Source: a virus (lineage: Duplodnaviria > Heunggongvirae > Uroviricota > Caudoviricetes). Taken from it: a DNA stretch of 15,890 nucleotides. Each line of letters opens with the position of its first letter. Position 1 is the stretch's first letter. A program made the translations under genes and the position numbers. The stretch covers positions 1-15,890 of the IMG/VR virus record IMGVR_UViG_2681813004_000014, one strand, 5' to 3'. The notes beneath the pieces are model-generated. The model made no database searches. It was given only the letters and a program-made list of their open reading frames with translations, and was not told the origin of the DNA. This document shows positions 981-14,790 of this stretch, piece after piece.

Positions 981-1315
981 TTTTCTGTACCCACCTTTGC
1001 CAGAATTTCCAGCCGGGTTCTTTTCGCATCAGGTAAGGGGATCCCGATGATATTAAGCGTGCTCCCGGCAAAAGCGCCGGTAAGCACTTTCAGGCGACTG
1101 GCGGCGGATATGTCGCCACGATAGCGAACCCATACCCGAATCGTTGCAGGTGCGGTTTCTGCGCCTGCGGTCAGTAATTCCCGTCCGCTGATCCCCTTGA
1201 CCTCTGCCCAGATGGTTTCCCCTTCCGTCCATATCTGCTGGATCGCACCTGACGGCAGGCGCTGTGTGGTAAATGTCATAATCGTCACCCGGTCCCGCAT
1301 CTTTCCGGCTATCAT
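977..1315 (-). CDS. Head closure / head-tail adaptor protein (gp7 / SPP1 gp16-like)
   Basis: 112 aa with MRDRVTI...IWAEVKGISGRE...IRVWVRYRGDI pattern; 4-bp overlap with portal stop. Confidence 0.65.
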   Translation of the reverse strand: MIAGKMRDRVTIMTFTTQRLPSGAIQQIWTEGETIWAEVKGISGRELLTAGAETAPATIRVWVRYRGDISAASRLKVLTGAFAGSTLNIIGIPLPDAKRTRLEILAKVGTEK

Positions 1316-2529
1316 TCGTCACCGCCCTTACTGTTCTTGCTGATTGTCACTTCCTGCTTCCATGCCTGGCTGAACTCGTCACCACCTTCACGCGGCGGCA
1401 TTCCCTCACGCTCACGGGCTTCGTTCGGATTGATGATCCCGTTCTTAATCCCTTTCTCATACGTGGCGTAACGTTCGGTAGGGGTGGCGCGTAATAAATC
1501 GGCTGAATCAAACTCAACCAGATAACGGGTTCCAGGCACGGGAGAAGCCACCAGCAAAGCGGCCTTGATTTGCTGTTCGAAGTTCGCCAACCAAGGACGC
1601 ATTGTCATGGTCAGAAACGCGCGGCTTGCCTCACTGAAATTGCTGTAGGTGCTGTTGCTGTATTCCTGCAAAAAAATCGGCGAGACGTTGAACATTCGGG
1701 CGATGTCTTCAATGGTAAAGCGACGGGAGGCCAGCCATTCAGCATCCTGATTACTCATGCCCAGCTGCTGATAGCTCATACCCCCTTCAAGGATGGGCGT
1801 TTTTCCGGCGTTTCTGGCCCCTTTGTAGCGTTCCAGTGCGGCTAATGCCTGTTTGCCCTTCACGCCGTCCAGCCATTCGCCTGACGTGATAACCCCTGCC
1901 GCCATCATGCCATCACGCATCACGCTCGCGCCGTGGCGTTGTTGGGCCAGCCCAAGCCCCAGCGATTCGCGGCAGATGGTTACAGGTGAGCGCCCCATAA
2001 AGCCGTCATCCGTGGAGTAACGAAGGTGGAGAACCTCCCACGGTAAATAGTTGCGGGTGTTTCCGGTGTAGGCGTCAGTGATGCAGTAGCGCCAGTTATG
2101 CTCACCTGTCTGCTCCACGTTCACCGACTGCGGCGGGTAAGGATGTAAAGCCACCGGAAAACCATCACGCCCCCACTGAATCACCGCATAAGCATTACCG
2201 TTTAACAGGCAGTGGCGGATCATCATTCGCTTAAACTGGTAGGGGGTTTGCCATGCGTTCGGGCGCTCGTTGAGGATGTGATCGACCGGATGAGAATCAA
2301 GCCACTCGCGGGCCTCCTTCCCCTTCTCATTGCGTACCAGGTACAGGTAACACGGCATGGTAGCCACCGCCTCAGAGATGACCGTCACGGCGTTCATGAC
2401 GGCGGGCAGTGATTCCGCTGTCCCCGATGATACGTACTCACCCGCCCCCGTGTTCGATGTGCCCGCCAGCGCCATAAATTCATCAAGCGTCATGCTGCGC
2501 TGCTCTTTTTTTCTTCTGAAAAGCCACAT
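1312..2529 (-). CDS. Portal protein, HK97 family (copy 1)
   Basis: 405 aa; near-identical to ORF 3552..4760 except the C-terminal tail; immediately upstream of prohead protease. Confidence 0.85.
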   Translation of the reverse strand: MWLFRRKKEQRSMTLDEFMALAGTSNTGAGEYVSSGTAESLPAVMNAVTVISEAVATMPCYLYLVRNEKGKEAREWLDSHPVDHILNERPNAWQTPYQFKRMMIRHCLLNGNAYAVIQWGRDGFPVALHPYPPQSVNVEQTGEHNWRYCITDAYTGNTRNYLPWEVLHLRYSTDDGFMGRSPVTICRESLGLGLAQQRHGASVMRDGMMAAGVITSGEWLDGVKGKQALAALERYKGARNAGKTPILEGGMSYQQLGMSNQDAEWLASRRFTIEDIARMFNVSPIFLQEYSNSTYSNFSEASRAFLTMTMRPWLANFEQQIKAALLVASPVPGTRYLVEFDSADLLRATPTERYATYEKGIKNGIINPNEAREREGMPPREGGDEFSQAWKQEVTISKNSKGGDE

Positions 2530-2530
2530 A

Positions 2531-3103
2531 TCACACCCCCGCTAAATCCACCCACCAGCGGCGATTATCCGCACGCGGCATTTTTTCGGGGTGCTGCTCA
2601 TACAGGGAACGGCGGGCCAGCTCCACGCCGGAATCGGGGTAAGCCGGTACCGATGTAACGGTAATTTCGTACAGTTCCGCCACCAGCACGGTACGAACGC
2701 ATGGATCTGTTGTGGTATCCCATACATCCTTACGGGAGCGAAAGCCAAAGCTCATGCCGGATATATCACCGCGTTTAACCAGTTCGATAACGTCGCGCCC
2801 TGTACTGGTATCCGGTGGGGTCAGTTCAAAGCGTAACCCTGTTTCGTCCTCTTCCAGTTTCAGCGTGCCGGAACGGGTGCGCCCCAGTAACATGCTGTGG
2901 TCATGCTCATACAGGCCGCGAACGTCATTACCCGCCGCAAGCCATTCAGTAAACGCCCCCCGCTGGAATTTTTCGTAAAACTCACCCCATAACAGTTCTG
3001 AAAGCTTATCCCAGCGAACAACGTAGCCCGTCAGCGTACCGGCTCCGCTCGTGGTGATTTCCGATGACCGGATTTCCATACTCTTCATAATTTTTTCACC
3101 CAT
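2531..3103 (-). CDS. Prohead protease, HK97 family (copy 1)
   Basis: 190 aa with DHSMLLGRTRSGTLKL and GMSFGF motifs; identical in protein sequence to ORF 4762..5334. Confidence 0.85.
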   Translation of the reverse strand: MGEKIMKSMEIRSSEITTSGAGTLTGYVVRWDKLSELLWGEFYEKFQRGAFTEWLAAGNDVRGLYEHDHSMLLGRTRSGTLKLEEDETGLRFELTPPDTSTGRDVIELVKRGDISGMSFGFRSRKDVWDTTTDPCVRTVLVAELYEITVTSVPAYPDSGVELARRSLYEQHPEKMPRADNRRWWVDLAGV

Positions 3104-3113
3104 AAAACACTAA

Positions 3114-3131
3114 AGGGGCTTTTAAGCCCCT
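3114..3131 (-). terminator. Hairpin 3' of the capsid-derived ORF (copy 1 of duplicated unit)
   Basis: Inverted repeat aggggct/agcccct with 4-nt loop followed on minus strand by a T-rich run; possible partial terminator or mRNA stabiliser. Confidence 0.3.
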
Positions 3132-3142
3132 TCTGTATGCTG

Positions 3143-3559
3143 TTAATCGTCGTCCTGTGGCAGTTCCAGAATCTTGATCGCGTTCGAATCCACCACGCCA
3201 CCGCCTAAATATTTCTGCGTGAAAATTTTGATGAAGCCCGGCTCTGTGATGTTGTCCGGTCTGGTGCGAACACCTGTTTCGTGATCAACAATGTAGTAAC
3301 CGCGTTTGAAGTCACCCAGGGCAATAACGTTATCAGGCATAAACTCCAGATATTCGACCGGAAGGCCCAGCAACGTATCAGGATCACCCGCCTGTAAACG
3401 GTCGCGCCAGATGTAATCACCGTTCGCGTTCTTCACCTTCTGAAGTTTTGCCGATGACGCGTTTCTTGTATACATTTTCAGAAGTTCGCCTTCTCCGGAA
3501 AAGTCATCAAGGCGAAGATGTGCCCTGACTTCATCAGGTGTAATTTTTTCTTCACTCAT
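3143..3559 (-). pseudogene. Chimeric ORF: gp6-like connector N-terminus (~35 aa) fused in frame to the last ~103 aa of the major capsid protein
   Basis: C-terminal part is identical to the end of capsid ORF 5374..6576; N-terminus MSEEKITPDEVRAHLRLDD resembles the start of connector ORF 684..980; Shine-Dalgarno-like aaggtg sits 6 nt upstream of ATG at 3559. Track ORF extends to 3640 but that region overlaps portal copy 2. Confidence 0.55.
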
Positions 3560-4760
3560 CTTTTTCACCTTTAATTTCCACCGTCTGCTTCCATGCCTGG
3601 CTGAATTCGTCGCCACCTTCACGCGGCGGCATCCCCTCACGTTCGCGGGCTTCGTTCGGATTCATGATCCCGTTCTTAATCCCTTTCTCATACGTGGCGT
3701 AACGTTCGGTAGGGGTGGCGCGTAATAAATCGGCTGAATCAAACTCAACCAGATAACGGGTACCAGGTACGGGAGAAGCCACCAGCAAAGCAGCCTTGAT
3801 TTGCTGTTCGAAGTTCGCCAGCCACGGGCGCATTGTCATGGTCAGAAACGCGCGGCTTGCCTCACTGAAATTGCTGTAGGTGCTGTTGCTGTATTCCTGC
3901 AAAAAAATCGGCGAGACGTTGAACATTCGGGCGATGTCTTCAATGGTAAAGCGACGGGAGGCCAGCCATTCAGCATCCTGATTACTCATGCCCAGCTGCT
4001 GATAGCTCATACCCCCTTCAAGGATGGGCGTTTTTCCGGCGTTTCTGGCCCCTTTGTAGCGTTCCAGTGCGGCTAATGCCTGTTTGCCCTTCACGCCGTC
4101 CAGCCATTCGCCTGACGTGATAACCCCTGCCGCCATCATGCCATCACGCATCACGCTCGCGCCGTGGCGTTGTTGGGCCAGCCCAAGCCCCAGCGATTCG
4201 CGGCAGATGGTTACAGGTGAGCGCCCCATAAAGCCGTCATCCGTGGAGTAACGAAGGTGGAGAACCTCCCACGGTAAATAGTTGCGGGTGTTTCCGGTGT
4301 AGGCGTCAGTGATGCAGTAGCGCCAGTTATGCTCACCTGTCTGCTCCACGTTCACCGACTGCGGCGGGTAAGGATGTAAAGCCACCGGAAAACCATCACG
4401 CCCCCACTGAATCACCGCATAAGCATTACCGTTTAACAGGCAGTGGCGGATCATCATTCGCTTAAACTGGTAGGGGGTTTGCCATGCGTTCGGGCGCTCG
4501 TTGAGGATGTGATCGACCGGATGAGAATCAAGCCACTCGCGGGCCTCCTTCCCCTTCTCATTGCGTACCAGGTACAGGTAACACGGCATGGTAGCCACCG
4601 CCTCAGAGATGACCGTCACGGCGTTCATGACGGCGGGCAGTGATTCCGCTGTCCCCGATGATACGTACTCACCCGCCCCCGTGTTCGATGTGCCCGCCAG
4701 CGCCATAAATTCATCAAGCGTCATGCTGCGCTGCTCTTTTTTTCTTCTGAAAAGCCACAT
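3552..4760 (-). CDS. Portal protein, HK97 family (copy 2)
   Basis: 402 aa; same as copy 1 except a different C-terminal tail (…KQTVEIKGEKDE). Confidence 0.85.
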   Translation of the reverse strand: MWLFRRKKEQRSMTLDEFMALAGTSNTGAGEYVSSGTAESLPAVMNAVTVISEAVATMPCYLYLVRNEKGKEAREWLDSHPVDHILNERPNAWQTPYQFKRMMIRHCLLNGNAYAVIQWGRDGFPVALHPYPPQSVNVEQTGEHNWRYCITDAYTGNTRNYLPWEVLHLRYSTDDGFMGRSPVTICRESLGLGLAQQRHGASVMRDGMMAAGVITSGEWLDGVKGKQALAALERYKGARNAGKTPILEGGMSYQQLGMSNQDAEWLASRRFTIEDIARMFNVSPIFLQEYSNSTYSNFSEASRAFLTMTMRPWLANFEQQIKAALLVASPVPGTRYLVEFDSADLLRATPTERYATYEKGIKNGIMNPNEAREREGMPPREGGDEFSQAWKQTVEIKGEKDE

Positions 4761-4761
4761 A

Positions 4762-5334
4762 TCACACCCCCGCTAAATCCACCCACCAGCGGCGATTATC
4801 CGCACGCGGCATTTTTTCGGGGTGCTGCTCATACAGGGAACGGCGGGCCAGCTCCACGCCGGAATCGGGGTAAGCCGGTACCGATGTAACGGTAATTTCG
4901 TACAGTTCCGCCACCAGCACGGTACGAACGCATGGATCTGTTGTGGTATCCCATACATCCTTACGGGAGCGAAAGCCAAAGCTCATGCCGGATATATCAC
5001 CGCGTTTAACCAGTTCGATAACGTCGCGCCCTGTACTGGTATCCGGTGGGGTCAGTTCAAAGCGTAACCCTGTTTCGTCCTCTTCCAGTTTCAGCGTGCC
5101 GGAACGGGTGCGCCCCAGTAACATGCTGTGGTCATGCTCATACAGGCCGCGAACGTCATTACCCGCCGCAAGCCATTCAGTAAACGCCCCCCGCTGGAAT
5201 TTTTCGTAAAACTCACCCCATAACAGTTCTGAAAGCTTATCCCAGCGAACAACGTAGCCCGTCAGCGTACCGGCTCCGCTCGTGGTGATTTCCGATGACC
5301 GGATTTCCATACTCTTCATAATTTTTTCACCCAT
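4762..5334 (-). CDS. Prohead protease, HK97 family (copy 2)
   Basis: Protein identical to copy 1. Confidence 0.85.
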   Translation of the reverse strand: MGEKIMKSMEIRSSEITTSGAGTLTGYVVRWDKLSELLWGEFYEKFQRGAFTEWLAAGNDVRGLYEHDHSMLLGRTRSGTLKLEEDETGLRFELTPPDTSTGRDVIELVKRGDISGMSFGFRSRKDVWDTTTDPCVRTVLVAELYEITVTSVPAYPDSGVELARRSLYEQHPEKMPRADNRRWWVDLAGV

Positions 5335-5373: not shown

Positions 5374-6576
5374 TTAATCGTCGTCCTGTGGCAGTTCCAG
5401 AATCTTGATCGCGTTCGAATCCACCACGCCACCGCCTAAATATTTCTGCGTGAAAATTTTGATGAAGCCCGGCTCTGTGATGTTGTCCGGTCTGGTGCGA
5501 ACACCTGTTTCGTGATCAACAATGTAGTAACCGCGTTTGAAGTCACCCAGGGCAATAACGTTATCAGGCATAAACTCCAGATATTCGACCGGAAGGCCCA
5601 GCAACGTATCAGGATCACCCGCCTGTAAACGGTCGCGCCAGATGTAATCACCGTTCGCGTTCTTCACCTTCTGAAGTTTTGCCGCCGTTGTGGAGTTAAC
5701 CACCCATACCGCGTTCTTGCGGTATTTTTTACGCAATGCAAATTTCAGGTCGATCAGCGGGTCCGCAGATGTCCACGCCAGACCGTGAGCGGGCTTGATA
5801 ACCTGCAACGTTCCGAAGTCGCGTTCTTTGTCGCTCTTCTCTGCACGGGGGACGGATAAAAAGCCTTTTGCTTTTTTGTCACCGTCGCCCACAACCAGAT
5901 CGCTTTCTTCGGTTTCCGTGAAGGTGTCGCCAATCTCGCCCGTCAGCCATGAAAGGATGTCCACATCGGAAAAATCCACGATTTCCTGTGTGGTGCGCGG
6001 GTACGCATAGACCGGATACAGCTTAATGCTCACCTCGTTAATCTTCGGGGTGCTGGTCTGTTCGCGTGCCTTACCCTCTTCACCGTGGTTAACGGTCGCA
6101 CCGCCAGCGGAAACAAGCTGCTTAAACTCGTTGCTGCTGATTTTCTTCACGGTACAGATGCGGCGCATGGTGGATTCATCCGCCAGTATTCGCATGATTT
6201 CGGTGTTCAGTTCGGGGATAACGGTATAACCACCATCAGCGGCAACGCCTGTACTTAATGCGCGGGTTTCACCTGTCAGAATGTAGTTGCGTAGTTCTGC
6301 GGGGTCAGTGGTCTGACTGCTTTTACCTGGCTTGCTGCGCTCTTCGTCTGCAATGGCTTCAAGGCGGGAAATGTCTTTATCGAGGGATTCAGCTTTAGCG
6401 CGTAATTCGTCAAATTTTGCGCCCTCAGCATCGTTAAGACTGCGGTTTTCTTTTTCCGCGTTCTCCAGCATGTCGCGCATCTGATTTTTAATGGCGGTTT
6501 TCTGCTGGCGTAATTCGATTATTCTCGGCATAAAAAAAAGTCCTGGGGTTAAGTAAGGAACTCCAGGACGCGACAA
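5374..6576 (-). CDS. Major capsid protein, HK97 family, with N-terminal coiled-coil delta domain
   Basis: 400 aa; N-terminal heptad-rich segment (IIELRQQKTAIKNQMRDMLENAEKE…) then a capsid-like body. Track start at 6576 is a TTG; an ATG at 6531 (MPRIIELRQQ) is an alternative start. Confidence 0.85.
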   Translation of the reverse strand: MSRPGVPYLTPGLFFMPRIIELRQQKTAIKNQMRDMLENAEKENRSLNDAEGAKFDELRAKAESLDKDISRLEAIADEERSKPGKSSQTTDPAELRNYILTGETRALSTGVAADGGYTVIPELNTEIMRILADESTMRRICTVKKISSNEFKQLVSAGGATVNHGEEGKAREQTSTPKINEVSIKLYPVYAYPRTTQEIVDFSDVDILSWLTGEIGDTFTETEESDLVVGDGDKKAKGFLSVPRAEKSDKERDFGTLQVIKPAHGLAWTSADPLIDLKFALRKKYRKNAVWVVNSTTAAKLQKVKNANGDYIWRDRLQAGDPDTLLGLPVEYLEFMPDNVIALGDFKRGYYIVDHETGVRTRPDNITEPGFIKIFTQKYLGGGVVDSNAIKILELPQDDD

Positions 6577-7509: not shown

Positions 7510-7543
7510 GCTGTACCTCACTGCTTAAAACGGTATCCCGTCC

Positions 7544-7815
7544 CCGTACGGATCATCGTGCTGGCCTGTCTGTTGTTTTGCCCTGTTCAGTGCGTCAGTA
7601 GCCTGGCCCTGCTGGCCTTTTTTGCCGCCCGGTCGCACTGTCCGCGCACTGATTACGCTGTCTGCGATGACCTGCCAGCCCGTACGGATCATCGTGCTGG
7701 CCTGTCTGTTGTTTTGCCCTGTTCAGTGCGTCAGTGGCCTGGCCCTGTTGACCTTTTTTGCCGCCCGGTCGCGCCGTTCGCGCACTGATTACGCTGTCTG
7801 CGATAACCTGCCAGC
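7544..7815. repeat. Tandem 136 bp duplication (2 copies, a few mismatches) at the 3' end of ssb
   Basis: 7544..7679 and 7680..7815 align at a 136 bp offset with a handful of substitutions. Confidence 0.85.
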
Positions 7816-8086
7816 CCTGCCGCGTTTCGCCGTTCTGGCCTGTCCACTGGCTTACCTGCATGTTACCCGCCACGCTCACCAGTTCGCCTTTCTGGTGTTT
7901 TGCCAGTGCCTCGGCCTGTCTGCCAAACGCCAGGACGGATAACCACATCGTCGCCGTTCCGTCATCTGCCTGGCTGCACGGAAGGGGGACCGCCATACTC
8001 GCCATCGCCATTTGTGTCCCCTTGCTGGTCTGTTTTACCTGCGGGTCAGCCACCAGCCGCCCGTAAGCTGCTATCTGTGCTGTCAT
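7595..8086 (-). CDS. ssb: Single-stranded DNA-binding protein with frameshifted C-terminus
   Basis: N-terminal OB-fold-like region (…TMWLSVLAFGRQAEALAKHQKGELVSVAGNMQVSQW…). The 136 bp duplication is not a multiple of 3, so the ORF ends in an out-of-frame tail; the canonical ending …HDDPYGDGIPF* is present in another frame, stopping at 7526. Confidence 0.7.
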   Translation of the reverse strand: MTAQIAAYGRLVADPQVKQTSKGTQMAMASMAVPLPCSQADDGTATMWLSVLAFGRQAEALAKHQKGELVSVAGNMQVSQWTGQNGETRQGWQVIADSVISARTARPGGKKGQQGQATDALNRAKQQTGQHDDPYGLAGHRRQRNQCADSATGRQKRPAGPGY

Positions 8087-10466: not shown

Positions 10467-11021
10467 TTAATCCCCGTCCGTCGTTTTTCTTAAAACAGTT
10501 TCCGTTACGAAATCAGCATAGTTAGCGGCGATATCAAGAATATTTAGCCCTGTATCCCTGTGCTCATCAGTGCAAAGAAAGAAAAAAGCCACCCGCATAA
10601 TTTCAGATATTGACGAAAGCGCATCAGCCGCATTATCAGGAACGCCGGAAAATTCCTGTTTCAGGGAATTAAAACGATCATCACGCATAACCCCCCCATT
10701 TTCACAATCAGCAATCAGGATGGCTTTAGCCTCATTCAGCGCCATATCAGCGGTTAGCTGTGCGTAGGCCAGCGAATGCGGGATTATTGCCCCTGTATAT
10801 TCCGGCTCTCTGGTAATGTGTTTTTCTGCGGTTGCTGCCGTGCATGAAATATCAATCAGCGCGTGCATTAGCGTTATGATGGCTTCGGCGGCTGCGTCCG
10901 GACGGATCTCTCTGGTAATGTGTTTTTCTGCGGTTGCTGCCGTGCATGAAATATCAATCAGCGCGTGCATTAGCGTTATGATGGCTTCGGCGGCTGCGTC
11001 CGGACGGATGTTATTGCACAT
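10467..11021 (-). CDS. Hypothetical protein (184 aa) with internal duplicated 34 aa segment
   Basis: Contains IRPDAAAEAIITLMHALIDISCTAATAEKHITRE twice in tandem. Confidence 0.5.
   Translation of the reverse strand: MCNNIRPDAAAEAIITLMHALIDISCTAATAEKHITREIRPDAAAEAIITLMHALIDISCTAATAEKHITREPEYTGAIIPHSLAYAQLTADMALNEAKAILIADCENGGVMRDDRFNSLKQEFSGVPDNAADALSSISEIMRVAFFFLCTDEHRDTGLNILDIAANYADFVTETVLRKTTDGD
10806..11009. repeat. Perfect tandem 102 bp duplication, in frame
   Basis: 10806..10907 is identical to 10908..11009. Confidence 0.85.
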
Positions 11022-11379: not shown

Positions 11380-11568
11380 GGTACACCCCCTGACGAATAC
11401 GGGCAGCGAATACAGCGACACAACCGGACGGGCAACGGTTACGCGCTTCGCGTTCTGTCCAGGCGGTGACGTGGATGATTTGGGATTCTCCGGCACTCAG
11501 TGCCAGAAAACGCCACACAAAGGCCGTTTGTGTGTGCGCTAGGCGTGGGGTATGCTGTTTTACAGCCA
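11372..11568 (-). CDS. Hypothetical small protein (~65 aa), first gene of the early operon
   Basis: ATG at 11568 with agaggt 7 nt upstream; MAVKQHTPRLAHTQTAFVWRFLAL…; the long track ORF 11372..12199 is rejected. Any resemblance to Icd-like small proteins is unverified. Confidence 0.4.
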
Positions 11569-11768
11569 TAATCGTTACCTCTTTTAACGGTTTGGTTAGA
11601 CGCCCCGTTACTGCTCCAACAGTACGGGGCTTCGTCGTTTCAATTGCTGAATTGCATATATCAGCCCTTGTGGTATTCAGATTACATTTAGGTGAATACC
11701 ATTTCAAGTCTTTTTTGGTATTCACTTTTGTATTACACTGCATCCCGTTATTAATCGGAGGTGCAAAT
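11569..11768. promoter_or_regulatory. Divergent promoter/operator region between the early operon and the RHH gene
   Basis: Half-site GGTATTCA at 11672-11679, its inverted copy at 11693-11700 (13 bp spacer) and a third copy at 11717-11724; imperfect hairpin at 11602-11630. Confidence 0.5.
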
Positions 11769-12074
11769 ATGTCCACGAGTTCTGTTAACAATAAGTCACA
11801 GCAACTGAATGCCAGATTTCCACATGAAGTAGTGAGTGGCATTGAGGCATCCCTACAGCCAGGGGAAACTAAAGCGAATTTTATAGTTACGGCTGTACGC
11901 GGTGAGATCGCCCGCCGCCAAGCAGAAGGAAGAAGAGAAAATCCCCTGGTTTCTTCGCTCGATGCACTGGCGCAGGTGGAAAAAATCGGTGTCAAAGCTG
12001 CCGAGGAGATCGGGCAACTCGTCGCCGTTGCGCGTGAAGAACTCCAGCGGCGCAAAGCCAAAGAACAGGAATAG
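11769..12074 (+). CDS. Ribbon-helix-helix-like DNA-binding protein (candidate island repressor)
   Basis: ggagg 8 nt upstream of ATG 11769; N-terminal region (…ARFPHEVVSGIEASL…FIVTAVRGEIARRQ) resembles Arc/CopG-type RHH; the only plus-strand island gene, divergent from the early operon. Confidence 0.55.
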   Translation: MSTSSVNNKSQQLNARFPHEVVSGIEASLQPGETKANFIVTAVRGEIARRQAEGRRENPLVSSLDALAQVEKIGVKAAEEIGQLVAVAREELQRRKAKEQE

Positions 12075-12162: not shown

Positions 12163-12190
12163 GGCGACCGCCCCCGGTCGCCTTTGTTTT
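12163..12190 (+). terminator. Rho-independent terminator
   Basis: GC-rich hairpin ggcgaccg-cccc-cggtcgcc followed by tttgtttt, downstream of the RHH gene. Confidence 0.6.
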
Positions 12191-12209: not shown

Positions 12210-12434
12210 TTACGCTGCCTTGCCTGAATTAATGCGATCCCGGCTTTTAACCCATTCCATAACCTCGGACAGCAGCCAACCTACAGAACGACCGCCCAGA
12301 TTAAGGCGTGACGGAAATCGCCCTTTTTTCTCCAGTTCGTAGCGTGTAGTGCGACACACTCCAGTTAACTTACGACATTCATCCTCACGGATTACGCGAT
12401 CTGATAGTGATTGAAATTGTGTATTTTGATTCAT
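12210..12434 (-). CDS. alpA: AlpA-family transcriptional regulator
   Basis: 74 aa; …CRKLTGVCRTTRYELEKKGRFPSRLNLGGRSVGWLLSEVMEWV matches the AlpA HTH pattern of CP4-57-type islands. Confidence 0.85.
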   Translation of the reverse strand: MNQNTQFQSLSDRVIREDECRKLTGVCRTTRYELEKKGRFPSRLNLGGRSVGWLLSEVMEWVKSRDRINSGKAA

Positions 12435-12528
12435 AAAAAACGTCCTCGAACGTTGCCGAACGAGGACGATTCTAGACGGTGGTAAAACGCCGTTTGTGTG
12501 ATATCACATTATCGGTACGTGATATCAC
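12435..12528 (-). promoter_or_regulatory. alpA leader hairpin plus two palindromic operator-like sites
   Basis: Hairpin 12441-12468 (cgtcctcg…cgaggacg) followed on the minus strand by TTTTTT and the alpA ATG; the right arm contains the only GAGGA upstream of alpA. Palindrome GTGATATCAC occurs at 12498-12507 and 12519-12528, centres 21 bp apart. Confidence 0.45.
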
Positions 12529-13244
12529 TTTTTGCGTTTTTGTTGAGATTCACGCCCCAAATACTTTTGCCATGTCTGCCAATGTGTTTTGGGAAATTCT
12601 ATCCCTCTGGATGCAGCTATAGAATCAATTAAATCTGCTATTTTAGGTAATGATTCCGTGTCTAGGTCTACATCACCCATTTCTGGAATAAGTTTAATTA
12701 AAGAGTAAATAACCTCATTCCTTTTTGCTGCTCTTTTGGGGTTATCTTCTGTAAGATTACGAAAACTACCTTCATCTTTTACATTATTTAAATCATCTGC
12801 CATCACACATAAATAATCAACATCTATATCAAATGGCTTGAGATTTTCCCCTTCTGGAGTTATTTCTAATCCACCGCCAAGTCTATCAGGGTAAAAATAT
12901 AATGTTGGTGAGCTTATGATGTTATTATGTTTAAACTCAATATCAGAGAACGCCTTTTTGTTTACATAGAAAAAACCAGCAATAAAATTTGCTATATATA
13001 ATCTATCATCTATTTCCTTCTCTAAATTAATTGTTTTGCCGTCCTGGAATATTAGTCCATTCCGTTTATTATCTTTAAATCCCTCAAGAAAATAAACCTC
13101 ACAGTTCCCAACACTATGCTCAGGAATAAATACAGAAATATCAATGGCACCTGTACTAGCGAAATGATAGAGATCCCTTATTGTACATCCTAACTTTTCT
13201 GCCGCTTCAGGTAACGGATAATAGAGTCTTTTAGGTAATTTCAT
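12525..13244 (-). CDS. Low-GC cargo protein of unknown function, possible N-terminal HTH
   Basis: 239 aa; markedly AT-rich compared with flanking int and alpA; N-terminus LPEAAEKLGCTIRDLYHFASTGAI resembles excisionase/MerR-type HTH; 4-bp overlap with int stop. Confidence 0.7.
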   Translation of the reverse strand: MKLPKRLYYPLPEAAEKLGCTIRDLYHFASTGAIDISVFIPEHSVGNCEVYFLEGFKDNKRNGLIFQDGKTINLEKEIDDRLYIANFIAGFFYVNKKAFSDIEFKHNNIISSPTLYFYPDRLGGGLEITPEGENLKPFDIDVDYLCVMADDLNNVKDEGSFRNLTEDNPKRAAKRNEVIYSLIKLIPEMGDVDLDTESLPKIADLIDSIAASRGIEFPKTHWQTWQKYLGRESQQKRKK

Positions 13245-14461
13245 TTAGCCACCTTCAGCATAACAATATTTTCATGATTTCCAGCCAGCACATCAAGACG
13301 CTCAACCCACAGATTCAACGCGTCCCGCTTTGCCTGTAAATAGCGTGAATGGTTATAGGTTTTTTGCTGACCGGGCATCTGATGCGCTGTGATGTGCTCC
13401 ACGATATGCGGATCGACACCTAAATCGTTCAGCATCGTTGTAAACGTGTGGCGAAAGTCATGCAGCGTCCAGTGTTCCTGGTTAAGCCGCTTATGCGCAT
13501 TTCGCCCATATTGCGCTACCGTGGTATCTTTTTTCAGTTCTCCGAGTAATAACCCTGTATGCCGGTTCTTCTCCACCAGCTTCTGAATGAACGGCAAAAT
13601 GCCATCGGGGATTGGCCTGAATATCGTTACCTTCGTTTTGCTATGCTCTTTTGGCACTGTCCACAACATTTCTTTCAGATCCCATTCTTTGATCTCTGAA
13701 AGTCTGACCTCTGCCGTTCTGCACCCGAACACAATCAGCAAGCGCATTAACGCGCTGTAGTAAGGCGCGAACACATCACCATCGATAGCGCGTAAAATTT
13801 CCTTTAATTCGCTGTTACTGTGCACCCTCTCGCGAATTTCTGCTCTCTTACCCACATCGCTGACGATCAAATCGTCCAGGGCATTACTGAACGCGTAGCG
13901 CCTCCTGCGGCAGAACTTTAGCGCCTGTTTGCAGGTTTGCATGACGTGCCCTGCTGCTACTGGTGCTTTTTTTCGTACACGGTCAAAACATGCGATCCAC
14001 TGCCTTGTATCGCATTTATCAAGAGGAATTGCCCCTATATGGCAAATGATGTGCTTATCCATACGTTGCACCAGCTTTATGTAGTCTTTGCGGTTACCCT
14101 TCGCATATTCATCCAGCCAGTAGTTAATCGCCTCCTTCACCGTAACGGGTTTTAGCGCTTCCTGTACTGTGGCGCACAACTCATAACGGGGGTTTTTACC
14201 CTCAGCCAGCCATGCCCGGCACTGTGCGCGTTTTTCCCTTGCAGCTTTCAGCGACAATTCAGGGTAAGCCCCCAGCTTTAACCGCTCTGCGGCAACCTCA
14301 CGGCCTCCCGTTCGGTACCGGAAATACCAGGTTAATTTGCCGCCCTTTGAGTGTTTAATCTCCAGCCCGCCCCCGTCGGAGTAAAAACGCTCTTTTTCTG
14401 CCTGGACAGCCGCCAATTTTTTTAACGTCGAATCGCTCAGTTTGTTTAGTGCTTTTCCCAC
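13241..14461 (-). CDS. int: Tyrosine integrase, P4-like
   Basis: 406 aa with catalytic-region pattern …LHDFRHTFTTMLNDLGVDPHIVEHITAHQ…YNHSRY; located at the island edge. Confidence 0.9.
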   Translation of the reverse strand: MGKALNKLSDSTLKKLAAVQAEKERFYSDGGGLEIKHSKGGKLTWYFRYRTGGREVAAERLKLGAYPELSLKAAREKRAQCRAWLAEGKNPRYELCATVQEALKPVTVKEAINYWLDEYAKGNRKDYIKLVQRMDKHIICHIGAIPLDKCDTRQWIACFDRVRKKAPVAAGHVMQTCKQALKFCRRRRYAFSNALDDLIVSDVGKRAEIRERVHSNSELKEILRAIDGDVFAPYYSALMRLLIVFGCRTAEVRLSEIKEWDLKEMLWTVPKEHSKTKVTIFRPIPDGILPFIQKLVEKNRHTGLLLGELKKDTTVAQYGRNAHKRLNQEHWTLHDFRHTFTTMLNDLGVDPHIVEHITAHQMPGQQKTYNHSRYLQAKRDALNLWVERLDVLAGNHENIVMLKVAK

Positions 14462-14489: not shown

Positions 14490-14640
14490 CTCAAAAAACT
14501 GACCACACAACTGACCACACATTTCGTTGAAGCTCTACGAACAACGACGAACAATAACAAACAAGAAAACGAAACATTCCATTTAATATCAAATACATAT
14601 CCAAACAACCACGAACAACCCCGAACCACAAAAAACACTA
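14490..14640. promoter_or_regulatory. A/C-rich repeat region upstream of int
   Basis: Direct repeat aactgaccacac x2 (14497-14520), multiple gaacaa units, and the 15-mer AACAACCACGAACAA (14604-14618) that also occurs at 6758-6772. Confidence 0.3.
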
Positions 14641-14790
14641 AATGAGAAAATACGGGTATTTCTCAGCCTTCACGCAGAAGGGCACCCCGAGTCGTTTGGT
14701 TGCGATGATAAATCGCAGAGGAGGATGGTAATGTCCAGCGCACGCGTTGTAAACGAGGAAAAACGGCAGTATTACAATCGCGTTAATAAA

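What the first reader, a model, noticed from the sequence alone, without database searches (positions are those of the whole stretch)
12525..13244. Low-GC cargo gene between integrase and alpA: candidate accessory or anti-phage function
The 239 aa ORF is strongly AT-rich relative to the genes on both sides, which marks it as a later acquisition. It occupies the slot between a P4-type int and alpA, a position that holds variable cargo in CP4-57-type islands (yfjH there). Its N-terminus looks like an excisionase/MerR-type HTH, and the remaining ~190 aa have no motif I recognise. It is co-transcribed with int (4-bp overlap) and is followed by palindromic sites and a terminator-like hairpin before alpA. 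This is the best candidate in the window for an undescribed system, but I cannot assign a mechanism from sequence alone.
Basis: partly seen in the sequence, partly recalled or inferred. Interest (0 to 1): 0.7.

Follow-up and report, generated by a model that had tools for sequence, protein, structure and literature searches.

The report
Regulator-like gene beside satellite master switch
The AT-rich 239-aa gene is a real, uncharacterised protein that always sits between the integrase and the alpA master-switch gene of enterobacterial phage satellites and always comes with two palindromic DNA sites at the likely alpA promoter, so it looks more like a swappable regulator of satellite induction than anti-phage cargo.

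Summary
A 239-aa ORF (12525-13244, minus strand; GC 0.34 against about 0.48 in its flanks) overlaps int by 4 bp and lies upstream of alpA.

The element is a capsid-forming PICI phage satellite inserted beside rcnR, not a CP4-57-type island.

The protein matches nothing in Pfam, NCBIfam, PADLOC, PDB or phage genomes. Its family has 534 clusters. All 14 alleles whose context I read sit at int-X-alpA.

Each allele carries two roughly 10-bp dyads, 20-22 bp apart. In the window these are GTGATATCAC twice, at -93 and -72 from the alpA ATG. They are followed by a -10-like hexamer and a covarying hairpin that buries the alpA ribosome-binding site.

Islands with the same AlpA but DUF6387 or nothing in the slot lack the dyads.

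The gene is mosaic. An island with 99% identical Int and 100% identical AlpA has codons 1-165 replaced, with sharp breakpoints. Within allele lineages dN/dS is 0.06-0.28.

Best reading (confidence about 0.5): a DNA-binding regulator of the alpA promoter with an exchangeable specificity module. Whether it activates or represses, and what it senses, is unknown.

Defence cargo is not excluded, because the 5' end of PICIs is a published immune hotspot, but no result here supports it.

The parts
13241..14461 (-). Tyrosine integrase of the satellite. Its stop codon overlaps the start of the 239-aa ORF.
   Evidence: Pfam Arm-DNA-bind_3 (E 2e-18) and Phage_integrase (E 4e-17). The 4-bp ATGA overlap is visible.
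12525..13244 (-). The 239-aa ORF of the finding, an uncharacterised family found only at int-X-alpA.
   Evidence: No Pfam, NCBIfam, PADLOC or PHROG assignment. The family has 534 representative clusters at E<=1e-3. dN/dS is 0.06-0.28.
13110..13244 (-). N-terminal winged-helix domain (aa 1-45), the best conserved part of the family (Y8, A14, C20, D24, H27).
12750..13109 (-). Beta-rich middle domain (aa 46-165), the most divergent part. Together with the N-domain it forms the exchangeable unit.
   Evidence: Mean pairwise identity 22%. AF2 strands with pLDDT 79-94. The recombination breakpoints against L017 lie at ~13250 and ~12750.
12528..12749 (-). C-terminal four-helix domain (aa 166-239). It is 94-97% identical among E. 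coli and Salmonella alleles whose N and middle domains are 11-75% identical.
   Evidence: dS 0.02 for the C-domain against >1.2 for the N and middle domains, L015 vs L017.
12519..12528 (.). Dyad O1, GTGATATCAC. It overlaps the ORF stop codon, starts at -94 from the alpA ATG, and is centred at about -61.5 of the putative alpA promoter.
12498..12507 (.). Dyad O2, GTGATATCAC, 21 bp after O1. It starts at -73 from the alpA ATG and is centred at about -40.5 of the putative promoter.
12469..12474 (-). A -10-like hexamer, TAGAAT, 23 nt after O2. No -35 match precedes it.
   Evidence: Read from the sequence. An nAnnAT hexamer lies 22-23 nt after O2 in the 8 allele types with a measurable spacing. The stricter promoter scan did not call it.
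12442..12467 (-). Hairpin in the alpA leader (7-bp stem, 12-nt loop). Its 3' arm CGAGGAC contains the alpA Shine-Dalgarno. GTTTTTT follows.
   Evidence: MFE -20.9 kcal/mol, z -3.9. 98.6% of cells paired, 4 of 7 pairs with compensatory changes, 0 of 500 shuffles as high.
12210..12434 (-). alpA, the published master activator of Gram-negative PICI induction.
   Evidence: Pfam Phage_AlpA, E 2e-16. Its role is taken from PMC6092414.

Best explanation
The ORF encodes a satellite-specific, sequence-specific DNA-binding regulator. It is made together with the integrase in the quiescent island, through the overlapping start and stop codons. Most likely it acts as a dimer or pair of dimers on two ~10-bp dyads (GTGATATCAC twice, 21 bp apart) at about -40 and -61 of a -35-less promoter for alpA, the gene that switches the satellite on. 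In this way it would gate induction of the island.

The N-terminal winged helix plus beta domain (codons 1-165) is an exchangeable module that exists in many old allelic forms. I infer that it sets what the regulator responds to, plausibly a helper-phage product. The C-terminal domain, the dyads, the hairpin and alpA travel together as the stable part.

A covarying hairpin that buries the alpA ribosome-binding site would keep read-through from int and this gene from expressing alpA. Transcripts started at the dyad-controlled promoter would begin inside the 5' arm and escape the hairpin.

Shown: the anatomy, the synteny, the co-occurrence of dyads and gene, the mosaic structure, purifying selection and the hairpin covariation. 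Inferred: DNA binding to the dyads, the promoter and its start site, the sign of regulation, and the sensed signal.
For: (1) Synteny: all 14 distinct alleles whose context I read lie between an Arm-DNA-bind_3 integrase and an AlpA/HTH_17 gene. They come from E. coli, Salmonella, Klebsiella, Citrobacter, Trabulsiella, Serratia, an unnamed Enterobacterales bacterium and several metagenomic, viral-contig or sequencing-run assemblies, down to 24% identity and profile E-values of about 1e-11. Most overlap int by 4-8 bp.
(2) Dyads: 12 of these allele types carry two GTNAWWTNAC-like dyads 20-22 bp apart just upstream of alpA. O2 starts at -72 to -78 and O1 at -92 to -100 from the alpA ATG in the 12 loci scored. 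At most 3 of 300 shuffles scored as well in 11 of those 12 (32 of 300 for L019). The spacers between the dyads are unrelated in sequence.
(3) Co-occurrence: islands with a 90.5% identical AlpA, or a 100% identical AlpA over residues 12-74, but with DUF6387 or nothing in the slot have no such dyads. The sites therefore go with this gene and not with AlpA.
(4) Promoter geometry: 22-23 nt after O2 there is an nAnnAT hexamer (TAGAAT, TACAAT, CAAAAT, CACTAT, CAATAT, TTAAAT) with no -35 match. The DUF6387 island has TTGCAC-16-TAAGAT at the same place.
(5) Fold: the N-terminus is a Xis/MerR/AlpA-type winged helix.
(6) Mosaic: compared with L017, Int is 98.8%, AlpA 100% and primase 97.6% identical, but this protein only 46%. 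Breakpoints lie at the int stop codon and at about codon 165. dS for the C-domain is 0.02, against >1.2 for the N and middle domains.
(7) Hairpin covariation.
(8) The family is absent from 50,697 phage records.
(9) How helper phages induce alpA, and whether Gram-negative PICIs have a repressor, are stated as open questions in PMC6092414.
Against: No binding, transcript or phenotype data exist. The promoter scan did not call a promoter here.

Which domain reads the dyads is unresolved. The only recognised DNA-binding fold is N-terminal, yet N-domains that are only 39-43% identical sit with identical dyads, and operator variants (GGGAATTCCC, GTAATATTAC, GGAATTTCC) track the C-terminal helix type rather than the N-terminal helix. 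The C-domain gave no fold match.

A 10-bp palindrome is short for two winged helices. In the Serratia and Enterobacterales-8AC subfamily only one clear palindrome (GTGGGAATTCCCAC) is present, and it lies inside the coding 3' end.

Only 66 of 5426 complete E. coli genomes carry the gene, and sister islands do without it, so it cannot be the general induction mechanism. The dyads could belong to a phage or host factor and merely be linked to the cassette.
Confidence: 0.5

Rival explanations
1. Accessory anti-phage (or other host-benefit) cargo. In this reading it is a single-gene immune protein carried in the 5' accessory hotspot of PICIs and expressed constitutively with int. Its allelic diversity would reflect an arms race with phages. 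The dyads would belong to the alpA promoter for some other factor.
For: PICIs are reported to carry immune systems at their 5' or 3' ends (PMC11364771, citing Fillol-Salom 2022). The slot is demonstrably swappable, holding this gene, DUF6387, a small gene in EcCIMP1, or nothing. Both slot genes measured are AT-rich and coupled to int by a 4-bp overlap. Many divergent alleles shuffled by recombination are typical of defence genes.
Against: There is no PADLOC hit. No nuclease, NTPase, TIR, Sir2 or membrane domain appears in the model or in 124 family members. Unlike typical cargo, every one of the 14 alleles whose context was read sits at this one position, and its own conserved dyad pair is positioned to the base pair relative to alpA in most. 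Islands without the gene lack the dyads. Within lineages selection is purifying, with no sign of ongoing positive selection.
Confidence: 0.22
2. Integration-module accessory. In this reading it is an elongated recombination directionality factor or Int partner. Its Xis-like N-domain would bend att DNA or contact Int to control excision or integration of the satellite.
Against: The conserved dyads lie about 2 kb from the int-proximal island end, next to alpA, not in att arms. The same Int (96-99% identical) works with a different N-domain, with DUF6387, or in related islands with no partner. Known RDFs are 60-100 aa single-domain proteins. No Pfam excisionase, HTH_17 or AlpA model matches.
Confidence: 0.1
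3. The two palindromes are not protein sites but the arms of an RNA or DNA stem-loop at the 3' end of the int-ORF transcript (a terminator or processing site). The ORF would then have an unrelated function.
For: Two identical palindromes are also perfect inverted repeats. In L020 (GTGAAATCAC and GTGATTTCAC) the second site is the exact reverse complement of the first, and in L019 it is close to it.
Against: A stem-loop gives no reason for each arm to be a palindrome in its own right, yet most are 5 of 5. In L033 (GTGAAATCAC and GTGAAATCGC) and in Klebsiella (GTGAATTCAC and GTGATATCCC) arm-to-arm pairing has 2-3 mismatches, while the GTGA....TCAC half-sites are kept. Centre-to-centre spacing is held at 20-22 bp, two helical turns.
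Confidence: 0.05

Closest known systems
Stl/Rpr master repressors of Gram-positive PICIs (SaPIs)
   Same: Both are encoded next to int in a phage satellite and expressed in the quiescent state. Both combine a DNA-binding part with highly divergent allelic forms. The proposed role is also the same: coupling island induction to a helper-phage signal at the promoter of the island's switch (PMC6092414).
   Different: No sequence or fold relation was found. This gene is co-directional with alpA rather than divergent. Its target is the promoter of an activator (alpA), and the site geometry (-40 and -61, no -35) fits activation at least as well as repression. It is present in only a minority of Gram-negative PICIs.
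Excisionase/RDF and AlpA-type winged-helix proteins (lambda-type Xis, RdfS, TorI, P4 Vis, AlpA)
   Different: It is 3-4 times longer, with a beta domain and a helical domain of unknown fold. No Pfam Phage_AlpA, HTH_17 or excisionase hit was found. The associated DNA sites are dyads at the alpA promoter, not arrays in att arms.
MerR-family transcription regulators
   Different: There is no long coiled-coil dimerisation helix after the winged helix; beta strands follow. The operators lie upstream of the -35 position, not between -35 and -10.
Accessory or immune genes in the 5' hotspot of PICIs (Fillol-Salom 2022, as cited in PMC11364771), including EcCIMP1_002 (PMC11773190)
   Same: It occupies the same physical slot directly after int. 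It is AT-rich and can be replaced by unrelated genes such as DUF6387.
   Different: This family was found at only one position and brings its own conserved dyad pair at a fixed distance from alpA. It has no known defence domain or PADLOC model.
The LuxR-type second regulator next to alpA in PIME1 integrative mobilizable elements (bioRxiv 10.64898/2026.01.12.698999)
   Same: It is a second regulator in the int-alpA regulatory region of an AlpA-controlled mobile element, and it too is proposed to sense the helper.
   Different: The protein family, the orientation (divergent in PIME1) and the helper type (conjugative plasmid) all differ.

Membership tests
Excisionase / recombination directionality factor (Xis, AlpA, Vis type) | Winged-helix (Xis/MerR-like) DNA-binding fold | tested here: met
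Excisionase / recombination directionality factor (Xis, AlpA, Vis type) | Small single-domain protein (about 55-100 aa) recognised by the Phage_AlpA, HTH_17 or excisionase profiles | tested here: not met
   The protein is 239 aa with three domains. It has no Pfam hit, and only 1 of 124 family members reaches HTH_17, at E 0.0026.
Excisionase / recombination directionality factor (Xis, AlpA, Vis type) | Binding sites in the att arms beside the recombination core | tested here: inconclusive
   The only conserved sites found lie ~2 kb from the int-proximal end, at alpA. The other island end is outside the window, so att-arm sites for the N-domain cannot be excluded.
MerR-family regulators | Winged helix followed by a long antiparallel coiled-coil dimerisation helix and a C-terminal effector domain | tested here: not met
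MerR-family regulators | Operator dyad located between the -35 and -10 hexamers of a promoter with a 19-20-bp spacer | tested here: not met
   The dyads are centred at about -40.5 and -61.5 relative to the putative TAGAAT promoter.
SaPI Stl-type satellite master repressor | Sequence or fold homology to Stl/Rpr proteins (N-terminal lambda-cI/Xre-type HTH) | tested here: not met
   No HTH_3/Xre-type or other Pfam hit. No PDB match by sequence or fold apart from the Xis/MerR winged helix.
SaPI Stl-type satellite master repressor | Represses the island's lytic-cycle promoter and is inactivated by binding a helper-phage protein | not testable with these tools
   This needs reporter, EMSA and interaction assays. 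Only the site geometry at the alpA promoter is available.
Known anti-phage defence systems (PADLOC/DefenseFinder catalogue) | Match to a defence-protein profile | tested here: not met
   PADLOC-DB: 0 families at E<=10.
Known anti-phage defence systems (PADLOC/DefenseFinder catalogue) | Location in a recognised defence hotspot of a mobile element | tested here: met
   The int-proximal (5') end of PICIs is a published immune hotspot (PMC11364771). Slot content varies between sister islands.
Known anti-phage defence systems (PADLOC/DefenseFinder catalogue) | Protection against phage infection | not testable with these tools
   Needs phage-challenge assays. Fillol-Salom 2022 (Cell) is not held in the library, so I could not check whether a member was tested there.
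DUF6387 (PF19924), the alternative occupant of the slot | Match to PF19924, or similarity to the L003 protein | tested here: not met
   BLASTP E 3.9. The L003 protein hits PF19924 at 4.6e-31 whereas the window ORF does not.
   hhalign probability 0.5%. yfjH is on the strand opposite to intA and alpA.
CRP/FNR/PrfA-type regulators (beta-barrel plus C-terminal HTH; GTGA half-sites) | Significant fold match over the beta-barrel and the HTH | tested here: not met
   PrfA chains appear only at Foldseek E 0.16-0.7, probability <0.1, TM 0.12-0.16. CRP-type half-site spacing (N6) is not present.

The most novel reading that the evidence does not exclude
This family is the missing helper-sensing switch of a subset of Gram-negative PICIs. 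It would be a modular regulator parked on two dyads at the alpA promoter. Its exchangeable winged-helix plus beta module would bind a helper-phage protein or DNA and thereby turn alpA, and so the whole satellite, on or off. The many old alleles would then define which phages can induce which island. That would make it a functional counterpart of SaPI Stl built from an unrelated fold.
Probability: 0.25. Interest if true: 0.8.

Novelty: new variant of a known kind. Interest (0 to 1): 0.6.

Why it matters
How Gram-negative PICIs sense their helper phages and switch on alpA is stated as unknown in the founding paper (PMC6092414). Whether they have any repressor is described there as unclear.

This gene offers a concrete, cheap test case. 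It is one protein, two 10-bp sites and one promoter, with natural allele swaps on an otherwise identical island backbone (98.8% Int, 100% AlpA).

If it gates alpA, the alleles would predict satellite-helper specificity. That matters for gene transfer by PICIs and for engineered PICI delivery vehicles.

If it instead proves to be a defence gene, it would be a new single-protein system with its own DNA sites. Either way the family has no Pfam, NCBIfam or PADLOC model and deserves one.

Tried and rejected
Profile searches with the single protein against Pfam, NCBIfam, PADLOC and PHROGs, and Pfam on 124 diverse members, found nothing usable.

Homology to YfjH and to DUF6387 was rejected.

AlpA as the binder of the dyads was rejected, because islands with the same AlpA lack them.

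I considered an RNA stem-loop reading of the two palindromes and judged it unlikely (see rivals).

CRP sites were rejected because the half-site spacing is N2, not N6.

I looked for covariation between the N-terminal recognition helix and operator variants and found none.

Positive selection in the middle domain is not seen within lineages: dN/dS is 0.06-0.28.

The genome-contig scan returned only one locus, and alignment A3 was too diverse for locus scans.

Fillol-Salom 2022 (Cell) could not be read, and searches by protein accession found no paper.

Rfam found no family in the region at the gathering threshold.

Full report
OBSERVATION

- Its ATG overlaps the stop codon of the upstream tyrosine integrase (13241..14461) in the sequence ATGA.
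- The integrase carries Arm-DNA-bind_3 and Phage_integrase domains.
- alpA (12210..12434, Phage_AlpA E 2e-16) lies 90 bp downstream.
- GC is 0.339 for the ORF, against 0.495 for int and 0.467 for alpA.
- Two exact GTGATATCAC palindromes lie at 12519-12528, across the ORF stop codon, and at 12498-12507. They are the only exact copies in the window.
- A hairpin at 12442-12467 immediately precedes the alpA ATG (MFE -20.9 kcal/mol, z -3.9).

CONTEXT

The window is not a CP4-57-type island. It is a capsid-forming PICI phage satellite inserted next to rcnR and rcnA.
- Reading leftward from int, it encodes alpA, a DUF4222 protein, an AAA_25 primase-type protein and a PerC regulator.
- It then encodes an HK97-type capsid, an S78 protease, a portal, a head completion protein, a connector and an HNH protein.
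- This matches the published int-alpA-pri layout of Gram-negative PICIs and of cf-PICIs such as EcCIEDL933 (PMC6092414; bioRxiv 10.1101/2022.09.08.507074).
- YfjH of CP4-57 is unrelated (hhalign probability 0.5%) and is on the opposite strand.

WHAT THE PROTEIN IS

No model in Pfam, NCBIfam, PADLOC or PHROGs fits it. None of 124 diverse relatives has a meaningful Pfam hit.

The family is nevertheless sizeable. A full HMM scan of 1.84 billion representative proteins gave 534 hits at E<=1e-3 and 57 at E<=1e-30, nearly all 230-320 aa long. It is absent from 50,697 phage genome records. Similar DNA occurs in 66 of 5426 complete E. coli genomes, where the gene is annotated as a hypothetical protein.

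An AlphaFold2 model (pLDDT 84) shows three parts:
- an N-terminal winged helix (aa 1-45);
- a beta-rich middle domain (aa 46-158);
- a four-helix C-terminal domain (aa 169-237), reached through a disordered linker at residues 160-166.

SYNTENY

I read the genomic context of 14 distinct alleles. They come from E. coli, Salmonella, Klebsiella, Citrobacter, Trabulsiella, Serratia, an unnamed Enterobacterales bacterium and several metagenomic, viral-contig or sequencing-run assemblies. They reach down to 24% identity and profile E-values of about 1e-11.

Every one lies directly after an Arm-DNA-bind_3 integrase, usually overlapping it by 4-8 bp. Every one lies 53-115 bp before an AlpA or HTH_17 gene. 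All sit in PICI-like elements, at several different chromosomal sites.

THE SLOT IS VARIABLE, AND THE GENE IS MOSAIC

At the same rcnR site, sister islands with a 96-99% identical Int carry another allele of this gene (L017) or an unrelated DUF6387 gene (L003). A related island at clpS/cspD, with a 100% identical AlpA over residues 12-74, has nothing in the slot (L004). EcCIMP1 carries yet another small gene there (PMC11773190).

Against L017:
- Int is 98.8%, AlpA 100% and primase 97.6% identical, but this protein is only 46% identical.
- Nucleotide identity is ~100% up to the int stop codon. It falls to 30-60% from about 13250 to 12750, and returns to ~100% from codon ~166 onward.

Against the DUF6387 island, the break is again at the int stop codon. 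Identity resumes only at about 12465, just before the hairpin, so the whole gene plus the palindromes is replaced.

Across alleles the C-terminal 72 aa are 94-97% identical, while the N-domain is 39-75% and the middle domain 11-25% identical. For L015 against L017, dS is 0.02 in the C-domain and above 1.2 in the N and middle domains. Within allele lineages every domain has dN/dS of 0.06-0.28. The diversity is therefore old and shuffled by recombination. It does not come from decay or from rapid current change.

Low GC (0.33-0.40) holds for seven of the eight other alleles measured, each below its own int and alpA. The Trabulsiella allele is 0.50. The DUF6387 occupant is also low, at 0.338. Low GC therefore does not mark a recent acquisition.

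THE DNA SITES

The stretch between the gene and alpA has the same design in twelve of the allele types, although its sequence is otherwise unrelated. The design is two ~10-bp dyads 20-22 bp apart.
- GTGATATCAC twice: window, O157, Salmonella, two more E. coli alleles, L034, L037.
- GTGAATTCAC and GTGATATCCC: Klebsiella.
- GTGATATCAC and GTGATTTCAC: Citrobacter.
- GTGAAATCAC and GTGAAATCGC: L033.
- GTGAAATCAC and GTGATTTCAC: L020.
- GGTGAACTCCCC and GGGGAATTCCCC: Trabulsiella.
- GGAATTTCC and GGAAATTACC: L019.
- GTAATATTGC and GTAATATTAC: L036.

In the twelve loci scored, O2 starts at -72 to -78 and O1 at -92 to -100 from the alpA ATG. At most 3 of 300 shuffles scored as well in eleven of those twelve, and 32 of 300 did for L019.

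The Serratia and Enterobacterales-8AC subfamily has one perfect GTGGGAATTCCCAC at the O1 position, inside the coding 3' end, and only a degenerate second site.

Islands with the same AlpA but DUF6387 or nothing in the slot have no such pair. The sites therefore belong with this gene and not with AlpA.

Read directly from the sequences:
- An nAnnAT hexamer (TAGAAT at 12469-12474) lies 22-23 nt after O2.
- No -35 match precedes it.
- The DUF6387 island has TTGCAC-16-TAAGAT at the same place.

This puts O2 at about -40.5 and O1 at about -61.5 of a putative -35-less alpA promoter. The stricter promoter scan did not call this site, so the promoter is an inference.

THE HAIRPIN

The 7-bp stem is kept in ten distinct leaders, including the DUF6387 island. 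98.6% of cells are paired, 4 of 7 pairs show compensatory changes, and 0 of 500 shuffles reach the observed score.

Its 3' arm always contains the alpA Shine-Dalgarno. The following U-run is not conserved.

I read it as an SD-sequestering element, and in this window possibly also a terminator. It would insulate alpA from int-ORF read-through. A start about 7 nt after TAGAAT would fall at the end of the 5' arm, so promoter-initiated transcripts would lack the hairpin. This is inference.

MECHANISM

The most economical reading is a sequence-specific regulator, made together with Int, that occupies the two dyads and controls the alpA promoter. Its exchangeable N plus middle module would set what it responds to.

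The published record leaves open whether Gram-negative PICIs have a repressor at all, and how helper phages induce alpA (PMC6092414). This gene could supply that link for the minority of islands that carry it.

I cannot tell activation from repression. The -40/-61 geometry and the missing -35 lean toward activation.

I also cannot tell which domain reads the dyads. The N-terminal winged helix is the only recognised DNA-binding fold and the best conserved part of the protein. However, N-domains that are only 39-43% identical sit with identical dyads, and operator variants track the C-terminal helix type.

RIVALS

- Defence cargo remains possible. The 5' end of PICIs is a published immune hotspot (PMC11364771), and the slot is swappable. 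But there is no defence profile and no effector-like domain, and ordinary cargo would not be expected to carry its own positioned operator pair.
- An RDF-like Int partner fits the fold and the coupling to int. It does not fit the position of the sites, nor the fact that the same Int works with other partners or with none.
- An RNA stem formed by the two palindromes is unlikely, because each arm is itself palindromic and arm-to-arm pairing breaks in two alleles.

NOVELTY AND LIMITS

No paper in the library mentions the protein or its accession numbers. The key Cell 2022 paper on PICI immune genes could not be read, so I cannot exclude that a family member was tested there.

Everything about function is inference from anatomy and comparison. 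I rate it a new variant of a known kind, namely satellite-encoded regulators that couple induction to a helper, built on an undescribed protein family. Interest is 0.6.

Noticed in passing
window 1312-5334 (repeat units start at 1343 and 3574; spacing 2231 bp): There is a tandem duplication inside the packaging module. Portal (1312-2529 and 3552-4760) and S78 protease (2531-3103 and 4762-5334) are each present twice. A truncated capsid fragment (3143-3640) lies between the copies, and the full capsid gene is at 5374-6576. The copies are ~94% identical over the 300-nt stretch compared, so this is not a simple assembly repeat. The related island L017 shows one capsid, one protease and the start of one portal before the fetched stretch ends.
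   Followed up: partly
window 10806-11009 and 7543-7817: Two further tandem duplications are present. One is a 102-bp unit repeated twice at 100% identity inside the 184-aa ORF 10467-11021, which gives an exact ~34-aa protein repeat. The other is a 136-bp unit repeated twice at 94% identity across the 3' end of the 163-aa ORF 7595-8086 (annotated single-stranded DNA-binding protein in related islands). Three tandem duplications in one 15-kb island is unusual.
   Followed up: no
window 14594-14699 (-); L001 6527-6661 (-): A weak TPP-riboswitch-like match (20 bits, E 0.8) lies between int and rcnR. In the related island L001 a better copy (36 bits, E 4e-4, still below the gathering score) sits directly upstream of thiM at the other island end. 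This suggests that the satellite's attachment site lies in the thiMD leader or riboswitch, so that integration splits or duplicates part of it.
   Followed up: partly
window 12442-12467 (-), and the same position in L003, L006, L009, L012, L015, L019, L026, L033, L034: The hairpin in the alpA leader is conserved by compensatory changes and always contains the alpA Shine-Dalgarno. It is also present in the DUF6387 island, so it belongs to this alpA leader type rather than to the 239-aa gene. Islands of the L004 type have the same AlpA from residue 12 onward but a different leader and N-terminus.
   Followed up: yes
L003 12334-13188 (-): A DUF6387 protein (284 aa, PF19924, E 4.6e-31) occupies the same slot in sister islands at the rcnR site. 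It is also AT-rich (GC 0.338) and also overlaps the int stop codon by 4 bp. Its function is unknown, and it is mentioned in only two papers in the library.
   Followed up: partly
window 12163-12182: A GC-rich hairpin (GGCGACCGCCCCCGGTCGCC) lies right after the alpA stop codon, between alpA and a convergent plus-strand ORF (within 11466-12074). It looks like a bidirectional terminator. A terminator directly after alpA is notable because Pseudomonas AlpA acts as an antiterminator (PMC7969949, abstract only).
   Followed up: no
L001 14647-14734 (-) and 14802-14851 (-): The related island L001 encodes a C4-type antisense RNA (68.5 bits, above the gathering score) and an a1/b1 target-like element (42 bits, below gathering) in its Icd-like region. 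The window has no Rfam match at the gathering threshold, so the region between alpA and the primase differs between these sister islands.
   Followed up: partly
window 12896-12988: Promoter-like hexamer pairs occur on both strands inside the AT-rich ORF: TTTACA-16-TAAAAT on the plus strand and ATAACA-18-TATATT on the minus strand. The number found in the region is no more than shuffles give (4 found against a mean of 5.2), so these are probably by-products of the base composition.
   Followed up: no
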